Origin: a virus
Lineage: Duplodnaviria > Heunggongvirae > Uroviricota > Caudoviricetes
IMG/VR virus record: IMGVR_UViG_3300012275_000032
Coordinates: 1 to 13,955 of that record
DNA length: 13,955 nucleotides
Direction: 5' to 3' (one strand)
Below the pieces are notes generated by a model that made no database searches, was not told the origin of the DNA, and was given only the letters and a program-made list of their open reading frames with translations. Both the position numbers and the translations under genes were made by a program. Of this stretch, positions 3,081 to 11,895 are shown piece after piece; positions within the stretch are counted from its first letter, which is position 1, and the number at the start of each line of letters is the position of its first letter.

Positions 3081-3273
3081 TTGTTCCAGACCAACTACAG
3101 GATTACAACAAAATCTGGTTGCAACACGGTGCATGTGTCGTAAGCAGTCAGTAAATGTCAAAAACGAACAGGCAGGACGCCCACGAAGTAGCCGCCTGGG
3201 GCATATGAAGTCCAGGATGATTCGTTGAGTCATGTTGTGCCACTAGGCACTCATGTTAAAGCAGGTGTATGAA

Positions 3274-3549
3274 ATGAAAGTCCAGATTTTAAACAATAAC
3301 TGTGAAGTCGTTTGGTCATACGACATAGCCGCCCCTGTAGATCAGAGCGGCGATAGCTGGACCAATGGGAAACATCAGATTATGGCTGGAGTTGTGTTCT
3401 CTTTACGCCGTGCTTTGGAACAGGCTGAAGTATTTCCATCAGACCCTGAATGGAAATGGCCTTTTTCTATTTGTCCAAATTCGGAGAGCACATTTCAGAA
3501 AATTGGTCAGAAAGTCGCACTCGAAGAGCATCAGCCAACTGTTTCCTGA
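3274..3549 (+). CDS. Hypothetical protein (91 aa from the ATG at 3274; the ORF track starts it at 3253)
   Basis: AGGTG about 7 nt upstream of the ATG at 3274. No recognisable family. Overlaps the convergent ORF 3467-3712 by 83 bp, so one of the two may be spurious. Confidence 0.3.
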   Translation: MKVQILNNNCEVVWSYDIAAPVDQSGDSWTNGKHQIMAGVVFSLRRALEQAEVFPSDPEWKWPFSICPNSESTFQKIGQKVALEEHQPTVS

Positions 3550-3779: not shown

Positions 3780-4140
3780 CACATAACAGCTAAGTATTTT
3801 CAACCAGAGAGAATCCTTAGCGTTGTGGTGAATGCGGCTCAGCGCACGCGGGTTAAGGTTGAGGCTGACAGTCGACCTTCTGTGGATACCCACCCGCCTG
3901 GTGTGCAACCTTCGCCAGGCACCGGGAGGCACCCGGCACCACAACTTTATGCTGTGTGTAGTCCTGGTGGTACCAGTTTGTACCCTTGCTTCCGGCTGGT
4001 ACCGTCCTTTTTACAAAACAGAGAAGAGCATCACCGGACGACGGGCTCATAACCCAATCCATCCGGGCGGCTGCCACCGCAGGTGTTCTTCTCTGTTTTG
4101 TGGAGAAACCAACCGACCTTGCAGGGTCGATATGATGAGG
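3780..4140. other. GC-rich non-coding stretch with dense secondary-structure potential; candidate structured RNA or cis-acting site
   Basis: An 18-bp inverted repeat, 4013-4030 against 4084-4101 (17 Watson-Crick pairs plus one G-U), encloses 53 nt. Further stems: GCCTGG/CCAGGC (3896-3901/3915-3920), CCGGG/CCCGG (3922-3926/3932-3936), TGGTACCA palindrome around 3967-3974. All ORFs here look junk-like and overlap on both strands. Confidence 0.4.
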
Positions 4141-4149
4141 AGCAGCAAA

Positions 4150-4439
4150 ATGGCTAGCGAACGCAGTACTGATGTGCAGGCATTTATCGGGGAGCTGGAC
4201 GGCGGCGTATTTGAAACCAAAATCGGCGCAGTTCTCAGTGAAGTCGCTTCCGGTGTGATGAACACGAAAACCAAAGGGAAGGTCTCACTNNNNNNNNNNA
4301 AATTTCTGAAGAAGACACCACCGAAACGCCGATGTATGTCAATCGCGGTGGTCGCCTGACTATTCTGCAGGAAGACCAGGGACAATTACTGACTCTTGCC
4401 GGTGAACCTGACGGAAAACTCCGCGCAGCAGGTCATTAA
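4150..4439 (+). CDS. Hypothetical phage protein interrupted by an assembly gap
   Basis: GAGGAG 7 nt upstream of the ATG at 4150. Protein-like sequence MASERSTDVQAFIGELDGGVFETKIGAVLSEVASGV before the gap, and after the gap (in a different frame) ISEEDTTETPMYVNRGGRLTILQEDQGQLLTLAGEPDGKLRAAGH ending at TAA 4437-4439. Confidence 0.4.
4290..4299. other. Run of 10 N (assembly or masking gap) inside a coding region
   Basis: Literal n characters. The frame before and after differs, so the true gap length is not 10. Confidence 0.95.
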
Positions 4440-5329: not shown

Positions 5330-5456
5330 TTTCATTACTGCAAATGCCCCTGCGGGGGCATTTATGGAAACGTAATTAACTCAATAATCACCGGATGGTG
5401 AGGGCTTCATTTTACCAGAATTCAGCGTGGTGCAGCACATATACGTGGAGAACAAA

Positions 5457-5987
5457 ATGTCATTTATTAAAACTTTTTCCGGGAAGCATTTTTATTATGA
5501 CAGGATAAATAAAGACGACATCGTGATTAACGATATCGCGGTTTCCCTTTCAAATATCTGTCGCTTTGCAGGGCATCTTTCACACTTCTACAGCGTCGCC
5601 CAGCATGCGGTGCTTTGCAGCCAGTTGGTGCCGCAGGAATTGGCTTTTGAAGCGTTAATGCATGATGCAACAGAAGCTTAGGACATCCCCGCACCACTGA
5701 AACGCCTTCTTCCTGACTATAAACGGATGGAAGAAAAAATAGACGCCGTAATCCGTGAGAAATACGGGTTACCCCCAGTTATGAGTACGCCCGTGAAATA
5801 TGCCGATCTCATCATGCTGGCAACCGAACGCCGCGATCTCGGGCTTGATGATGGCTCTTTCTGGCCTGTACTGGAAGGCATCCCGGCAACAGAGATGTTC
5901 AACGTGATTCCACTGGCTCCAGGCCATGCCTACGGGATGTTTATGGAACGCTTTAACGAATTATCGGAGTTACGCAAATGCGCATAA
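5457..5987 (+). pseudogene. YfdR-like HD-domain phosphohydrolase (5'-deoxynucleotidase family) interrupted by an in-frame TAG
   Basis: ORF 5427/5457-5681 ends at TAG (5679-5681) directly after the HD motif (ALMHDATEA). The same frame continues DIPAPLKRLLPDYKRMEEK... into ORF 5727-5987. GGAGAA Shine-Dalgarno before the ATG at 5457. Total length about 176 codons, consistent with one gene. Confidence 0.6.
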
Positions 5988-6613: not shown

Positions 6614-6820
6614 ATGCTGAACCTCGATTGTGTTCCAATCTCAACTTATTGCAAAGAAACTGGCGAAACTCCTGAAGCAATAAACAAACGTGTACAGCGC
6701 GGTGTTTGGCGTGAAGGTGTTCAGGTTTTAAAGGTTGAAGGCGTTAAGGAGAGGTGGATTGATCTTAGTGAGGTTGCAAAATGGGCCAGACAAAACTGCT
6801 CAAACTACCGCGCGGCGTAA
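6614..6820 (+). CDS. Excisionase-like protein (Xis), 68 aa from the ATG at 6614 (the ORF track begins at GTG 6602)
   Basis: Small basic protein immediately upstream of the integrase and overlapping it by 40 nt, the classic xis-int arrangement. GGAG (6604-6607) about 6 nt upstream of the ATG at 6614. Confidence 0.55.
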   Translation: MLNLDCVPISTYCKETGETPEAINKRVQRGVWREGVQVLKVEGVKERWIDLSEVAKWARQNCSNYRAA

Positions 6821-7977
6821 CAATCAGGAAACACCGCCAGGGCGAAACGATCAATATAACTTTCACCTACAAAGGAGTTAGATGTCGTGAGCCTCTTTCC
6901 AATCTGGAAGTAACACCAAAGAACATTAAATACGCCGAGCGCACACTCGGCGAAATTCATAATAAGATCGAAAGGGGAACATTCATTTATGCGGAATATT
7001 TTCCCCGTTCTGCTCGTTTGAAAATTTTTGGTAATGCTGCTGCAGGCAAAACGGTAAAAATGTACCTGGACGAATACCTTGAAATCTGCGAAACGAGAAA
7101 ACTTTCACCATCTACGATTGGTGGTTATAAAAAATGCCGTAGTGCGTTAGCCTCACTCCACATTTGCCCTGCAAGTGAATTAACACCAGCAATCCTGAAA
7201 GCGTGGATTCAAAGCCAAAAAACGACCTTAAAAACCATTCGCAACCAGTTATCTTTCCTGCGGTCAGCACTTGATGAAGCCGTAACCGATGGGGTACTTC
7301 AAATTAATCCCGTATCGTTAGTAACTGCTTCGCGCTACCAAAGTGATAAGTCAGAAGCAGAAAGCAGCTACGTGGTTGATCCGCTATCACCAGCAGAAGT
7401 TGATGCATTACTAGCAGCAGCCGGAAACAAACAATGGGAGAATCTGTTCCGGTTTGCTATACATACGGGCCTGCGTAGTTCTGAATTATGTGCCCTTCGA
7501 TGGCGTGATATCGACTTTGTTGGAAAAACTGCCCATGTCCAGAGCGCAAGTGTTGTCGGTGTTATCAAAGGAACAAAGACAAAAGCCGGTACTCGTAAAG
7601 TTGAACTGACAGAAGAGGCAATGTTGGCGCTGATAAACCAGAAGCCATTTACATTCATGAAGGATGCTACTGTCTTTGAAGATCCAAAGACCAATAAGCC
7701 TTGGGCAAGTGCTGATGCAATCAGGAAAAAAGCATGGGTGCCAACATTGCGAAAAGCAGGTATTCGTTACAGAAACCCATATCAAACCAGGCATACATTC
7801 GCCACCAGCCATATCAGCCGAGGAGCAAACCTGTTTTGGCTTGCAGCTCAAATGGGGCATAAAGGGCCGGAAATGCTTTTCAGGCATTATGGTTCGTATC
7901 TCGTAGACTATGATGGCAAGACAGCTTGTAAGGACCAAGTATCAAAAAATCCGGAGAACATGAAAATTGAGAAGTAA
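6781..7977 (+). CDS. Tyrosine site-specific integrase (lambda family, with N-terminal arm-binding domain), 398 aa
   Basis: N-terminus LPRGVTIRKH...FTYKGVRCREPL resembles the arm-binding (DUF3596-type) domain. Catalytic motifs present: TGLRSSEL (Arg), KTKAG (Lys), RHTFATSH (His-x-x-Arg), GH...FRHYGSY (His, Tyr). GAGG Shine-Dalgarno upstream. Confidence 0.9.
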   Translation: MGQTKLLKLPRGVTIRKHRQGETINITFTYKGVRCREPLSNLEVTPKNIKYAERTLGEIHNKIERGTFIYAEYFPRSARLKIFGNAAAGKTVKMYLDEYLEICETRKLSPSTIGGYKKCRSALASLHICPASELTPAILKAWIQSQKTTLKTIRNQLSFLRSALDEAVTDGVLQINPVSLVTASRYQSDKSEAESSYVVDPLSPAEVDALLAAAGNKQWENLFRFAIHTGLRSSELCALRWRDIDFVGKTAHVQSASVVGVIKGTKTKAGTRKVELTEEAMLALINQKPFTFMKDATVFEDPKTNKPWASADAIRKKAWVPTLRKAGIRYRNPYQTRHTFATSHISRGANLFWLAAQMGHKGPEMLFRHYGSYLVDYDGKTACKDQVSKNPENMKIEK

Positions 7978-8080
7978 AACGCCCGATAGCACTAGCCCCC
8001 CTTCGCAAAACAGTAAAGCTTACAAGAATGTTAGCAGGATGATGAGGATAGTGTACAATGGTTTTAGTGTGCATTAAATG

Positions 8081-8120
8081 CAAAGATTTGACGTTTTTTG
8101 TCAAATTTGTGCTATAAAAT
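8081..8120 (+). promoter_or_regulatory. Promoter with extended -10 and overlapping dyad symmetry, upstream of the defence gene pair
   Basis: TGcTATAAA extended -10 (8110-8118). TTGACG (8088-8093) is a -35-like hexamer at non-optimal spacing. Imperfect inverted repeat CAAAGATTTGAC-N7-GTCAAATTTGTG (8081-8111). AAGGG Shine-Dalgarno before the ATG at 8168. Confidence 0.45.
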
Positions 8121-8167
8121 CACTTTTAGTGGTTTTTAAGCTATGGGAAGTTAAAAGGGTATAAATT

Positions 8168-9433
8168 ATGTTGATTGAGTTTACAGTACAAAACTATAAA
8201 TCTATTTCAGAGAAACAAACACTGAGTTTAGTTGCATCAAAACTTAACGATTTGCCTAATAATCTGTTCAGTATTGATGAACCTAAATCTCTTGAATTGC
8301 TTAAAAGTGCTGTGATTTATGGCCCTAATGCTGCCGGAAAATCAAACATTATTAACGCTATTACAACTATGGCTGAACTTATTGTCCGGTCTGCTACAGG
8401 TTATAAAAGTGGTGATAAACTTGATATCACGCCTTTTAGACTAGACTCAAAGAAGATTAATCAACCATCTGAATTTGAAATTAACTTTATTTCCGAAGGC
8501 ATCAGATACCAGTATGGTTTTTCTGCAACAGAAGATTTTATTCACGACGAATGGTTATTTGCATTCCCCAAAGGCAGACCACAAAAATGGTTTTTACGTC
8601 TATGGGATGAAGAAAAACAAACCCATGAATGGGAGTTGGGGCCATCGTTGACAGGAGAAAAACAAACATGGTTGAAATCAACTAGGCCTAATGCGCTCTT
8701 TCTTTCTACAGCGGTACAATTAAACAGTGTACAACTAAAACCTGTATACGATTGGTTTTATTACAAAGTTAAATTTACTGAATTAACAGGTTGGGATAGT
8801 GATTACAGTGCAAAGCAATGCTTAAATGATAAGAAAGATGAGATTCTCAATTTTTTAAAAGCTGCCGATGTAGGTATTGATGACATTCATGTAACAAAAG
8901 AAAAATTCAATCCCAATGCTCTTCCTGATGATATGCCTGCAGCCATCAAGGAACTAGTGATTAAGAATATGCAAGGCAAGGAAGAATATGTCATTAAAAC
9001 ACTTCATAATAATGAGGATGGAGAGCCAATTCCATTCGATTTAAAAGATGAATCGCATGGAACTAGAAAAATCTTTAGTTTCGCGGGTCCCTTATCACAT
9101 TCACTCGAGACAGGAAACATCCTGTTTATTGATGAATTAAATGATAACTTACACCCCAAATTAGTTGAGTTTATTGTAGGTTTGTTTCACGATAAAAATA
9201 TCAATAAGAATGGTGCCCAGTTAATCTTTACAACTCATGAGACGTCTATTTTAAATCAAGATGTTTTCAGACGAGATCAGATTTGGTTTGTAGAAAAAGA
9301 CAATTCAAAGCAAACAAATCTTTTCCCACTTACGGATTTTAGTCCAAGAAAAGGAAGGGAGAATTTAGAAGCTTCTTATCTTGACGGTAGATATGGGGCT
9401 TTACCACTCATTGGGAAATGGGAGAGATATTAA
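8168..9433 (+). CDS. ABC/AAA_21-type ATPase of a two-gene defence module (AbiLi / AriA / OLD-N-terminal-like), 421 aa
   Basis: Walker A GPNAAGKS (nt 8321-8344), Walker B ILFIDELNDNLHP, H-loop-like IFTTHE. AT-rich codon usage. Stop TAA (9431-9433) overlaps the partner ATG. Confidence 0.85.
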   Translation: MLIEFTVQNYKSISEKQTLSLVASKLNDLPNNLFSIDEPKSLELLKSAVIYGPNAAGKSNIINAITTMAELIVRSATGYKSGDKLDITPFRLDSKKINQPSEFEINFISEGIRYQYGFSATEDFIHDEWLFAFPKGRPQKWFLRLWDEEKQTHEWELGPSLTGEKQTWLKSTRPNALFLSTAVQLNSVQLKPVYDWFYYKVKFTELTGWDSDYSAKQCLNDKKDEILNFLKAADVGIDDIHVTKEKFNPNALPDDMPAAIKELVIKNMQGKEEYVIKTLHNNEDGEPIPFDLKDESHGTRKIFSFAGPLSHSLETGNILFIDELNDNLHPKLVEFIVGLFHDKNINKNGAQLIFTTHETSILNQDVFRRDQIWFVEKDNSKQTNLFPLTDFSPRKGRENLEASYLDGRYGALPLIGKWERY

Positions 9434-10119
9434 TGGGAAGCGAAGATCTGTTCAAAAAAAGAAAGGCTCGGCGTAATAATGAATTCAAACGAGTTAGTAA
9501 AGCACGAGCTCAAATGAAGAAAATTCTTATCGTCTGTGAGGGAGAGAAGACTGAGCCCGCATATTTTACAGATTTTATAAAACATTGCCGTATAAGCACG
9601 GCAAGCATAGTTGAGATTTCTGGAGAGTGCGGCTCAAGCCCTATGAATGTGGTATCTTGGGCAAAAGAAAAATATAATACGGAAAAAAAAAGGAGCGACC
9701 CTTATGATAAGGTTTATTGTGTCTTTGATAGAGACGCTCACCCTAACTATGATGAAGCTCTTAGCAGGATTAATTCCTTAAATCCAAAAGGGATTTTTGT
9801 TGCTATAACTTCCATACCATGTTTCGAGTACTGGCTGATACTACATTTTGGATACACCCGAAAATCATTTTCACCTCAGAAAGGCAAAAGTGAAGGCGCA
9901 CAAATGCTAGCTGAGTTAAAAAAATACATGCCAGATTATGAGAAAAAGGCATCAGGTGTATTTAATAAATTGCAAGATCGGCTCGATACGGCATTAATCA
10001 ATGCTAAAAGAGTCGAAGATGCCGCCAAAAAAGACGGTTCGATAAATCCTTCAACTAAAGTTGGCGCTTTGATTACAGATCTAATTAACATTCGTGATGA
10101 CTTTGAAAATGAGAAGTAA
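9433..10119 (+). CDS. RloB-like / Toprim-like partner protein (AbiLii-like), 228 aa from the ATG at 9433 (the ORF track begins at 9418)
   Basis: TAATG stop-start overlap with the ATPase gene and GGGAG Shine-Dalgarno (9419-9425). Basic N-terminal tail, then ILIVCEGEKTEPAYF (Toprim Glu, nt about 9526-9570) and a downstream FDRDAH (DxD) motif, the RloB-family signature as recalled. Confidence 0.8.
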   Translation: MGSEDLFKKRKARRNNEFKRVSKARAQMKKILIVCEGEKTEPAYFTDFIKHCRISTASIVEISGECGSSPMNVVSWAKEKYNTEKKRSDPYDKVYCVFDRDAHPNYDEALSRINSLNPKGIFVAITSIPCFEYWLILHFGYTRKSFSPQKGKSEGAQMLAELKKYMPDYEKKASGVFNKLQDRLDTALINAKRVEDAAKKDGSINPSTKVGALITDLINIRDDFENEK

Positions 10120-10244
10120 AAATAACATGTCATGATGTAGCGACGGCAGCATGTTTAAGTTCAAATGGCAAAGTGTACGCGAAGTATACGCGGATCAAAA
10201 ACAATAGAAAAAACGTATATTTTACAAAAGATTATATAAATTTT

Positions 10245-10266
10245 GACGCGGGTTCAACTCCCGCCA
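10245..10266 (+). other. Partial copy of the tmRNA (ssrA) 3' end: prophage/island att core (attR-like boundary)
   Basis: GACGCGGGTTCAACTCCCGCCAGC matches the T-arm and 3' acceptor strand of E. coli tmRNA (recalled as ...GGACGCGGGTTCAACTCCCGCCAGCTCCACCA). It then diverges (CCCCAATCA), and no tmRNA body lies upstream. Confidence 0.7.
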
Positions 10267-10400
10267 GCCCCCAATCATGATTGGACGGTGTAAGGACTAC
10301 ACCAACAAAAACAGGAAGTTATAAGTCTCAGCAGGACACCGACCAGACGGTGAGGAGACAAAAAAGGATACGCAACGGAGTCGCGACTCCCTATGACATT

Positions 10401-10427
10401 AAAGCCCGCTGATGCGGGCTTTTTTAT
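10401..10427 (+). terminator. Intrinsic terminator about 140 bp downstream of the att copy
   Basis: Stem AGCCCGC (10403-10409), loop TGAT, stem GCGGGCT (10414-10420), followed by TTTTTTATT. Confidence 0.6.

Positions 10428-10856: not shown

Positions 10857-11895
<1,039 letters not shown>

What the first reader, a model, noticed from the sequence alone, without database searches (positions are those of the whole stretch)
8168..10119. Candidate two-gene anti-phage system: ATPase plus RloB/Toprim-like partner (split OLD-like, AbiL/PARIS-like)
The two genes are translationally coupled (TAATG) and sit as cargo between the integrase and the att site, a typical defence-hotspot position. Gene 1 has Walker A/B and H-loop motifs of the AAA_21/ABC ATPase clade used by AbiLi, PARIS AriA, Septu PtuA and OLD nucleases. 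Gene 2 has the CEGEKTE and DxD motifs of RloB/Toprim-like partners (AbiLii type). This architecture is known from Lactococcus AbiL and restriction-linked Rlo genes but is, to my knowledge, uncharacterised in E. coli prophages. Target, trigger and mechanism (nuclease or abortive infection) are unknown.
Basis: partly seen in the sequence, partly recalled or inferred. Interest (0 to 1): 0.85.

Follow-up and report, generated by a model that had tools for sequence, protein, structure and literature searches.

The report
AbiL-type defence pair in E. coli prophage
Two overlapping genes next to a prophage integrase encode an ATPase and a small RloB nuclease-like protein of the known AbiL anti-phage family, so this is a rare E. 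coli example of a known system whose mechanism is still unsolved.

Summary
Window 8168-9433 encodes a 421-aa ABC ATPase (Pfam AAA_21 1e-38; PADLOC AbiLi 4e-101). Window 9433-10119 encodes a 228-aa RloB protein (Pfam RloB 1e-39; PADLOC AbiLii 5e-29). The stop and start overlap as TAATG.

The pair is an AT-rich moron (33-39% GC) between the integrase of a lambdoid prophage and a copy of the ssrA 3' end. In sister prophages with the same integrase, that slot holds a PD-Lambda-5-like pair, DarTG or unknown cassettes, so it is a cargo hotspot.

In 80 of 80 related loci from other species the ATPase gene lies directly upstream of the RloB gene, and no third gene is conserved. Homologues occupy the tin/old slot of a Klebsiella P2-like prophage, type I restriction operons and a Wadjet/type III restriction island.

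This is a new member of a known kind (AbiL/RloAB), not PARIS, Septu, Gabija or Old. The mechanism is inferred: the ATPase senses infection and holds or activates the nuclease, giving abortive infection. I found no test of an E. coli member.

One addition may be new. A dyad element (TTTTTGnn-N7-nnCAAAAA; window 8087-8105) travels with these operons across distant bacteria and is probably an operator.

Interest is modest (0.32).

The parts
6781..7977 (+). Prophage tyrosine integrase (398 aa). It marks the left edge of the cargo slot.
   Evidence: Pfam Arm-DNA-bind_2 1e-23 and Phage_integrase 4.7e-16. The gene is present in 412 of 5426 E. coli genomes. Similarity breaks off at differing points in its 3' end (query positions 1112 to 1197), which fits different cargo downstream.
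8031..8059 (+). Promoter-like site TTAGCA-17-TACAAT. It is largely conserved in the integrase-linked cassettes of E. coli, Enterobacter and Silvania.
   Evidence: Consensus scan and alignment A3. It is a consensus match only, and the scan found fewer sites than in shuffled sequence, so function is not shown.
8087..8105 (.). Dyad-symmetric element TTTGAC-GTTTTTT-GTCAAA, a probable operator that travels with the module.
   Evidence: TTTGAC and TTTGTCA are invariant in four cassettes whose flanks diverge, including a Klebsiella P2-like prophage. Exact TGAC-N7-GTCA lies within 150 nt upstream of the ATPase gene in 19 of 81 loci, and a match of at least 7 of 8 in 31 of 81. Random 150-nt windows give 0.2% and 4.5%. 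Inner half-sites covary while symmetry is kept. The element is also present upstream of plasmid homologues, one of them 31% identical in its ATPase.
8110..8118 (+). Extended -10-like TGCTATAAA, an alternative promoter just after the dyad.
   Evidence: Read from the sequence. A similar TGCTA motif abuts the left arm of the dyad in about 20 homologous operons. Inference only; no transcription start site data.
8155..8159 (+). Shine-Dalgarno-like AAGGG, 8 nt before the gene 1 ATG.
   Evidence: Read from the sequence.
8168..9433 (+). Gene 1: AbiLi/RloA-type ABC ATPase, 421 aa, the predicted sensor and regulator.
9420..9426 (+). Shine-Dalgarno GGGAGAG for gene 2, inside the end of gene 1.
   Evidence: Read from the sequence.
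9433..10119 (+). Gene 2: AbiLii/RloB protein, 228 aa, the predicted Toprim-like nuclease effector. Its start overlaps the gene 1 stop (TAATG).
10245..10268 (+). att core: a copy of the 3' end of ssrA (tmRNA). It marks the right edge of the prophage.
   Evidence: Partial Rfam tmRNA match 10100-10277 reaching model position 374 of 374, E 3.8e-6. No complete tmRNA or tRNA gene is present. The chromosomal genes glaH and lhgO follow.
10401..10422 (+). Intrinsic terminator-like hairpin plus T-run. It is the first one downstream of gene 2, beyond the att core.
   Evidence: Terminator scan.

Best explanation
This is a two-gene AbiL/RloAB-type anti-phage module carried as a moron by a lambdoid prophage integrated at ssrA.

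Shown here:
- The genes encode a Rad50/SMC-like ABC ATPase and an RloB protein with an invariant acidic E...DxD...E constellation.
- The two genes are an obligate, co-oriented, tightly spaced pair with no conserved third gene.
- They sit in a slot where sister prophages carry other defence systems.

Inferred from relatives (PARIS AriA/AriB, P2 Old, Gabija, Septu/retron PtuA):
- The ATPase oligomer holds the RloB nuclease inactive and acts as the infection sensor.
- A phage-made trigger changes the ATPase state and frees or activates RloB.
- RloB then cuts a nucleic acid. tRNA is the leading candidate, because AriB and Old are described as tRNases. Phage or host DNA is the alternative.
- Growth of the infected cell and of the phage stops (abortive infection), which protects the lysogen population and the prophage.

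Expression is probably set by a dyad operator at 8087-8105 that co-travels with the module. The simplest reading is autoregulation by the module's own proteins.
For: - Family assignment: AbiLi 4.2e-101, AbiLii 4.9e-29, AAA_21 1.3e-38, RloB 1e-39.
- Intact catalytic motifs, invariant over 43-45 homologues.
- ATPase model with Rad50/SMC and PtuA/AriA/OLD/GajA structural neighbours.
- Overlapping stop and start.
- In 80 of 80 loci from different species the ATPase gene is directly upstream on the same strand, with gaps between alignment ends of -9 to +86 nt.
- No conserved third gene: the commonest neighbour cluster is in 7 of 80 loci.
- Defence context: the same integrase-att slot holds a PD-Lambda-5_B-type methylase with an ATPase in JJ1886 and DarT with a NADAR antitoxin in ECONIH4.
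- The Klebsiella homologue sits where P2 carries tin and old.
- The Cellvibrio homologue lies between Wadjet and a type III restriction system.
- Type I restriction genes are the most recurrent defence-type neighbours.
- Low GC (33-39%, against 42-50% for the prophage and 53-57% for the chromosome) marks horizontal acquisition.
- Literature: L. lactis AbiL is a two-gene abortive-infection system (PMC13064643). AbiL is grouped with PARIS and OLD as ABC ATPase plus Toprim (PMC11464382). AriB and Old are described as tRNases (PMC12409363; bioRxiv 10.64898/2026.07.10.737580).
- Dyad element enrichment and covariation.
Against: - No experiment exists on this locus or, in the library searched, on any E. 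coli AbiL.
- The AbiL mechanism itself is unresolved (PMC13064643), so sensor-effector roles, substrate and trigger are all analogy.
- The module is rare in sequenced phages: 5 records.
- The binder of the dyad element is unknown, and neither protein has a recognisable DNA-binding domain.
Confidence: 0.8

Rival explanations
1. The pair is mainly a toxin-antitoxin or addiction module. RloB is a toxic nuclease and the ATPase its antitoxin, and the role is to stabilise the prophage or plasmid rather than to defend against phages.
For: NetFlax paired AAA antitoxins with TOPRIM_OLD-domain toxins, calls AbiLii a toxic effector and links an RloB-homologous node to the same AAA node (PMC10440598). Distant ATPase-plus-RloB pairs are nearly the only annotated genes on 3.7-5.3 kb mobilizable plasmids of E. 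coli, Klebsiella and Salmonella, a setting typical of addiction modules. A dyad operator upstream resembles type II toxin-antitoxin autoregulation.
Against: This reading does not exclude defence, since PARIS is now described as a toxin-antitoxin-like defence system (PMC13064643). The contexts seen here are defence slots: the P2 tin/old position, restriction operons and a Wadjet neighbourhood. A 421-aa ATPase with strictly conserved catalytic residues is far more than simple neutralisation needs.
Confidence: 0.1
2. The pair guards restriction-modification. Like PrrC with EcoprrI, or PARIS sensing Ocr, RloAB would be triggered by phage anti-restriction proteins, and the prophage copy would back up the host's type I restriction systems.
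For: HsdR, HsdM and HsdS are the most recurrent defence-type neighbours (6, 5 and 4 of 80 loci). The pair can sit between hsdS and hsdR. The name Rlo (restriction-linked ORF) comes from Campylobacter type I loci (cited in PMC13064643). PARIS, a related ABC-plus-Toprim system, senses the anti-restriction protein Ocr (PMC9122126, PMC11464382).
Against: No restriction gene lies in the 14-kb window. At least 74 of the 80 homologous loci have no type I restriction gene cluster within about 7 kb. The link could simply reflect defence-island clustering. This rival is a special case of the best explanation (a specific trigger), not a separate function.
Confidence: 0.07
3. The pair serves the phage's own DNA metabolism, as a Rad50/Mre11-like or OLD-like repair or recombination function during the lytic cycle, and is not a defence system.
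Against: The ATPase has no long coiled coil (421 aa in total). The pair is absent from most sister prophages that share the same integrase: 15 genomes carry it against 412 with the integrase. It sits outside the phage replication and recombination modules, has foreign GC content, and is also found in non-phage chromosomal islands and restriction operons.
Confidence: 0.03

Closest known systems
AbiL (AbiLi/AbiLii) of Lactococcus lactis plasmid pND861
   Same: Two co-transcribed genes: an ABC (Rad50/SMC-like) ATPase followed by a small RloB/Toprim-like protein of similar size. The review's structure overlays cite 453 and 206 residues for AbiLi and AbiLii, against 421 and 228 aa here. The best PADLOC matches are AbiLi 4.2e-101 and AbiLii 4.9e-29. 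Both are carried on a mobile element.
   Different: The host is Gram-negative E. coli. The carrier is a lambdoid prophage slot between integrase and att rather than a plasmid. I could not retrieve the lactococcal proteins, so direct sequence identity was not measured, and no Lactococcus plasmid appeared in the tblastn search of plasmids. No phenotype is known for the E. coli pair.
RloA/RloB, restriction-linked ORFs of Campylobacter type I restriction loci (Pfam PF13707)
   Same: The gene 2 product is a full-length RloB domain (1e-39, profile positions 1-195 of 195). One ATPase homologue is named RloA by its source (P0228). Some homologues are embedded in hsdM-hsdS-...-hsdR operons.
   Different: The window copy is not linked to any restriction system. 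No function has been shown for RloAB.
PARIS (AriA/AriB)
   Different: The partner is RloB, not DUF4435/AriB, and gave no AriB or DUF4435 hit. The ATPase is structurally nearer to Rad50/SMC and PtuA than to AriA. The trigger and substrate are unknown.
P2 Old (class 1 OLD nuclease)
   Same: Both combine an ABC ATPase with a Toprim-type nuclease carried by a temperate phage as a lysogenic-conversion gene. The Klebsiella homologue of this pair occupies the tin/old slot of a P2-like prophage. The ATPase signature, Walker B and H-loop region aligns with Old (E 8e-6).
   Different: Old is one 586-aa polypeptide, whereas here the two functions are separate genes. The RloB profile shows no detectable sequence similarity to Old.
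Septu and retron-associated PtuA/PtuB
   Different: The partner is not an HNH nuclease. The NCBIfam PtuA score of 25 bits is far below the cut-off of 500.

Membership tests
AbiL (as modelled in PADLOC) | AbiLi-type ABC ATPase | tested here: met
   PADLOC AbiLi 4.2e-101 over residues 1-418. Pfam AAA_21 1.3e-38.
AbiL (as modelled in PADLOC) | AbiLii/RloB-type partner protein | tested here: met
   PADLOC AbiLii 4.9e-29. Pfam RloB 1e-39, covering the full profile.
AbiL (as modelled in PADLOC) | The two genes are adjacent, co-oriented and form one operon | tested here: met
   TAATG overlap. The same order and tight spacing hold in 80 of 80 homologous loci. Co-transcription itself was not measured.
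AbiL (as modelled in PADLOC) | Confers phage resistance by abortive infection, with both genes required | not testable with these tools
   This needs cloning and phage challenge. No report for an E. coli member was found.
OLD-like ABC ATPase plus Toprim nuclease systems | ABC ATPase of the AAA_15/AAA_21 type with intact Walker A, Walker B, signature and H-loop | tested here: met
   Structural neighbours include PtuA, the Eco8 OLD nuclease, AriA, OLD and GajA.
OLD-like ABC ATPase plus Toprim nuclease systems | Partner or domain with a Toprim fold and catalytic Glu plus DxD | tested here: inconclusive
PARIS | AriB partner with a DUF4435 Toprim domain | tested here: not met
   Gene 2 matches only AbiLii and PDC-M12B in PADLOC, and only RloB in Pfam.
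Septu | PtuB HNH nuclease partner | tested here: not met
   No HNH hit for gene 2. The PtuA equivalog scores 25 bits against a cut-off of 500.
Gabija | Fused ATPase-Toprim GajA plus UvrD-like helicase GajB | tested here: not met
   ATPase and nuclease are separate genes. No long ORF directly flanks the pair other than the integrase, and none of the large window ORFs scanned is a helicase.
P2 Old (class 1 OLD) | Single polypeptide with an N-terminal ATPase and a C-terminal Toprim | tested here: not met
   There are two ORFs. Only the ATPase motifs align with Old.
RloAB, restriction-linked | Embedded in a type I restriction-modification locus | tested here: not met
   The window has no hsd genes. 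About 6 of 80 homologous loci do.
Type II toxin-antitoxin | Toxic effector neutralised by its partner, with autoregulation | not testable with these tools
   There is only an indirect hint: a conserved dyad operator-like element upstream.

The most novel reading that the evidence does not exclude
AbiL/RloAB operons carry their own conserved dyad operator (TTTTTGnn-N7-nnCAAAAA, with covarying half-sites) that is bound by the ATPase-RloB complex itself. Expression and nuclease release would then be coupled, as in conditional-cooperativity toxin-antitoxin systems. The E. coli prophage copy would act as a tRNA-cleaving abortive system triggered by a phage anti-restriction or DNA-mimic protein. This E. 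coli member would become the tractable model that solves the 25-year-old AbiL mechanism.
Probability: 0.2. Interest if true: 0.55.

Novelty: new member of a known kind. Interest (0 to 1): 0.32.

Why it matters
AbiL has been known since 1999, but its trigger, substrate and assembly are still unresolved (PMC13064643). A native E. coli version with a compact 2.3-kb cassette and a likely native promoter could be tested directly with standard coliphage panels and E. coli genetics.

The locus also defines a variable cargo slot between the integrase and att of ssrA-integrating lambdoid prophages, an integrase found in 412 of 5426 genomes. Besides AbiL, a PD-Lambda-5-like pair and DarTG, this slot holds several cassettes with no match in PADLOC, so it is a place to look for new defence systems.

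The conserved dyad element gives a concrete handle on how such potentially toxic modules are regulated.

Tried and rejected
- PARIS membership was rejected: no AriB or DUF4435 match.
- NCBIfam gave no hit above its cut-offs.
- Sequence search of solved structures gave nothing useful for either protein.
- Foldseek of the RloB model against the PDB returned only generic alpha/beta folds, with none at E 0.001 or better.
- hhalign of the RloB profile against P2 Old and against the JJ1886 OLD-like ATPase gave no Toprim link (probability 0.3). The profile was shallow (Neff 2.7) and the templates were single sequences, so this is a weak negative.
- Scanning 45 RloB members against Pfam at E up to 1 found no Toprim family.
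- Nucleotide search of the phage collection found no close relative.
- tblastn against plasmids found no Lactococcus record, so direct comparison with the prototype AbiL was not possible.
- A conserved third gene was sought and not found among ORFs of 120 aa or more. Smaller ORFs were not screened.
- An RNA hairpin was considered for the dyad element. It is disfavoured because, in the class about 40 nt from the start codon, an extended -10-like motif abuts the left arm. The transcript would then start inside the element. This was not formally excluded.
- Sigma-54 promoter and integron attC readings of the element were considered and dropped, because spacing and sequence do not fit.
- My first paper search was wasted on the prefix 'abil' matching 'ability'.
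Full report
**1. The observation**

The window holds two ORFs on the + strand at the stated coordinates: 8168-9433 (421 aa) and 9418/9433-10119. Reading the sequence, gene 1 ends with TAA at 9431-9433 and an ATG sits at 9433-9435, so the junction is TAATG. GGGAGAG at 9420-9426 is placed correctly as a ribosome-binding site for that ATG. The upstream in-frame ATG at 9418 has no such site. RefSeq annotation of identical DNA uses the same boundaries and names the products 'AAA family ATPase' or 'ATP/GTP-binding protein' and 'RloB family protein'.

- Pfam AAA_21 1.3e-38 and AAA_15 9.3e-9 for gene 1, and RloB 1e-39 over the whole profile for gene 2.
- PADLOC AbiLi 4.2e-101 and AbiLii 4.9e-29.
- NCBIfam had nothing above its cut-offs.

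- ATPase: Walker A G52/N54/A55/G57/K58, signature E295/S296/G298/T299, Walker B D322/E323 and H357.
- RloB: C35/E36/G37/K39/T40/E41, D99/D101/H103 and S127/P129/F131/E132.

**2. Surroundings**

The left 8 kb of the window is the early region of a lambdoid prophage. It holds a Rha/Ash regulator, ymfL, a cro-like gene, a cI-like S24 repressor, yfdQ (DUF2303) and a DUF551 protein, and it ends with a tyrosine integrase at 6781-7977.

After gene 2 comes a copy of the last bases of ssrA. This is a partial Rfam tmRNA match that reaches the final model position (10100-10277, E 3.8e-6). The core is read at 10245-10268, and no whole tRNA or tmRNA gene is present. A terminator-like hairpin follows at 10401-10422, and then the chromosomal genes glaH and lhgO.

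GC content falls to 33-39% across 8001-10000. The rest of the prophage is at 42-50% and the chromosomal genes at 53-57%. This marks a horizontally acquired moron.

**3. The slot is a hotspot**

The exact module is in only 15 of 5426 complete E. coli genomes, always chromosomal, and is absent at the nucleotide level from the phage collection. The integrase, in contrast, is in 412 genomes. Its similarity to the window breaks off at different positions in the 3' end (query positions 1197, 1152, 1151, 1134, 1122, 1119 and 1112).

Representative genomes show different cargo in the same slot:
- JJ1886: an ATPase plus a Dam-type methylase matching PD-Lambda-5_B at 5.8e-124.
- ECONIH4: DarT with a NADAR antitoxin.
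- Ecol_AZ146: a single 259-aa protein.
- CFT073: two hypothetical proteins.
- ATCC 11775 and elppa10: a three-gene cassette that includes a STAS-like protein.

The last three types match nothing in PADLOC.

The closest relatives of the module, in Enterobacter (85% identity) and Silvania (86%), also sit directly behind the same type of integrase in related prophages.

**4. The module elsewhere**

The RloB protein has 1707 relatives and the ATPase more than 7500, at E 1e-5 or better. Among the best hits that carry a source name, most are from Gammaproteobacteria.

A scan of one genome per species found 571 RloB relatives. In the best 80 loci, the ATPase homologue lies immediately upstream on the same strand in 80 of 80. 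The gaps between alignment ends range from -9 to +86 nt. These loci include Desulfobacterota, Nitrospira and two archaeal metagenome-assembled genomes. In these loci the ATPase is typically more conserved (about 50-57% identity) than RloB (about 42-47%).

No third gene is conserved. The most frequent neighbour cluster occurs in 7 of 80 loci and reads as an ABC-transporter ATPase by eye.

The recurrent defence-type neighbours are:
- HsdR in 6 loci, HsdM in 5 and HsdS in 4.
- A YgjP-like peptidase in 5.
- A Macro-domain protein, a type III-like methylase, DUF1156 and Fic in 4 each.

Some copies are thus true 'restriction-linked' RloAB pairs, lying between hsdS and hsdR.

In Klebsiella, a homologue with 61% identity sits between gpA and the portal gene of a P2-like prophage. 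P2 carries tin and old in that position. In Cellvibrio, the pair lies between Wadjet jetABCD and a type III restriction system.

Distant pairs (31-34% identity) are nearly the only annotated genes on 3.7-5.3 kb mobilizable plasmids of E. coli, Klebsiella and Salmonella. Both proteins fall in PHROG families of unknown function. Only five phage records carry an RloB relative.

**5. Structures**

Neither protein has a relative of solved structure that is detectable by sequence.

**6. A regulatory element that travels with the module**

Aligning the upstream regions of four cassettes showed that TTTGAC and TTTGTCA are invariant while the flanks diverge. This holds even for the Klebsiella P2-like copy. 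In the window the element is TTTGAC-GTTTTTT-GTCAAA at 8087-8105.

Across the homologous loci:
- Exact TGAC-N7-GTCA lies within 150 nt upstream of the ATPase start in 19 of 81. A match of at least 7 of 8 positions occurs in 31 of 81. Random 150-nt windows of the same loci give 0.2% and 4.5%.
- Sites cluster about 40 and about 100 nt before the start codon. Several loci have both, 61-62 bp apart.
- Loci without this exact motif carry symmetric variants such as TTTTTGGA-N7-TCCAAAAA, TTTTTGCA-N7-TGCAA and TTTTTGGC-N7-GCCAAAAA. The 31%-identical E. coli plasmid homologue has TTTTTCGC-N7-GCGAAAAA.
- When sites are anchored only on the outer TTTG...CAAA, the two inner pairs are both complementary in 17 of 39 upstream sites, against 6 of 47 elsewhere. 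Six different complementary dinucleotides are used. A stricter anchor gave the same trend.

In the class about 40 nt from the start, an extended -10-like TGCTA motif abuts the left arm, and the 7-nt spacer is often itself -10-like. In the window, TGCTATAAA follows the dyad at 8110-8118.

The simplest reading is an operator that overlaps the promoter. No regulator gene is conserved nearby among ORFs of 120 aa or more, so autoregulation by the module's own proteins is the leading guess. This is inference. An RNA hairpin is not excluded.

**7. Mechanism**

Shown here:
- Family membership.
- Intact catalytic motifs.
- Obligate pairing of the two genes.
- A location in defence slots.

Inferred by analogy with relatives:
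- The ATPase oligomer senses infection and holds the RloB nuclease in check.
- A phage trigger releases or activates RloB.
- RloB then cuts tRNA, as AriB and Old are described as doing (PMC12409363; bioRxiv 10.64898/2026.07.10.737580), or DNA. The outcome is abortive infection.

The 2026 review of lactococcal Abi systems states that it is still open whether AbiL, RloAB and similar pairs work like PARIS (PMC13064643).

The rivals are a pure addiction module, a guard of restriction systems, and a phage repair function. They are scored in their own sections. The first two overlap with the main model rather than replace it.

**8. Comparison and novelty**

The pair meets the sequence and architecture criteria for AbiL. 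It fails those for PARIS (no DUF4435), Septu (no HNH), Gabija (no fusion and no helicase) and Old (not a single polypeptide). The window copy is not restriction-linked.

I found no paper that tests an E. coli AbiL. The Rousset hotspot paper has no RloB mention, and its single 'abil' hit came from a prefix search that also matches 'ability'.

It is a new member of a known kind. Its value is practical. It offers a compact, native E. coli cassette for solving the AbiL mechanism, a newly delimited prophage cargo slot with several unknown cassettes, and a conserved operator-like element. A specialist would not be surprised by the system itself, so interest is 0.32.

Noticed in passing
window 11687-11696: A run of 10 N lies inside glaH and replaces about 48 nt present in JJ1886. 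It makes the glaH ORF appear truncated at 253 aa. This looks like an assembly gap or masked stretch, not a real mutation.
   Followed up: yes
L014 6187-7375 (CFT073); L015 6165-8035 (ATCC 11775); L016 6180-8068 (elppa10); L013 6215-6994 (Ecol_AZ146): The same slot between integrase and att in sister prophages holds cassettes of one, two or three genes. One cassette includes a STAS-like protein. The cassettes of CFT073, ATCC 11775 and Ecol_AZ146 match nothing in PADLOC 2.0; elppa10 carries a cassette like that of ATCC 11775 and was not scanned. They are candidate unknown defence systems and may be more novel than the AbiL pair.
   Followed up: partly
L101 (E. coli plasmid pPSS-04_5, 3916 bp) 493-2458; similar 3.7-5.3 kb plasmids in Klebsiella and Salmonella: Small ColE1-like mobilizable plasmids carry, besides rop, only a distant ATPase-plus-RloB pair (31% and about 34% identity). 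Upstream of it, the E. coli plasmid examined has its own version of the dyad element, TTTTTCGC-N7-GCGAAAAA.
   Followed up: partly
L007 8001-9987 (Klebsiella P2-like prophage): A homologue with 61% identity occupies the tin/old slot between gpA and the portal gene of a P2-like prophage. It keeps the TTTGAC-N7-GTCA element although the rest of its upstream region is unrelated.
   Followed up: yes
window 9341-9433 (ATPase residues 392-421) and 9433-9516 (RloB residues 1-28): The ATPase C-terminal tail (SPRKGRENLE.SYLDGRYGALP) is almost invariant, and the RloB N-terminus is basic with several invariant residues. Both are low-confidence in the monomer models. They are candidates for the ATPase-RloB interface or for nucleic-acid binding.
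   Followed up: no
window 8069-8123: The short dyad is embedded in a longer imperfect inverted repeat, with 24-nt arms that are 71% complementary. This is specific to the E. coli copy.
   Followed up: no
L001 16362-21209 (EC71) and L003 11361-12590 (O103:H2): In other strains that carry the identical module, a second integrase and a further island follow the att copy. In EC71 the island carries a recombinase and two ParB-like genes. Islands are therefore stacked in tandem at ssrA, whereas the window runs straight into glaH.
   Followed up: no
window 3253-3549, 3832-4359 and 5427-5681: Three ORFs in the prophage early region (98, 175 and 84 aa) have no Pfam match.
   Followed up: no
L036 875-11697 and L045 3700-10993 (Vreelandella, Halomonas): The gene order, combined from these two closely related loci, is hsdM-hsdS-Macro-ATPase-RloB-hsdR-YgjP-like peptidase. 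The pair sits where prrC sits in the prr locus (from my own knowledge). These loci carry two dyad sites 61 bp apart.
   Followed up: partly
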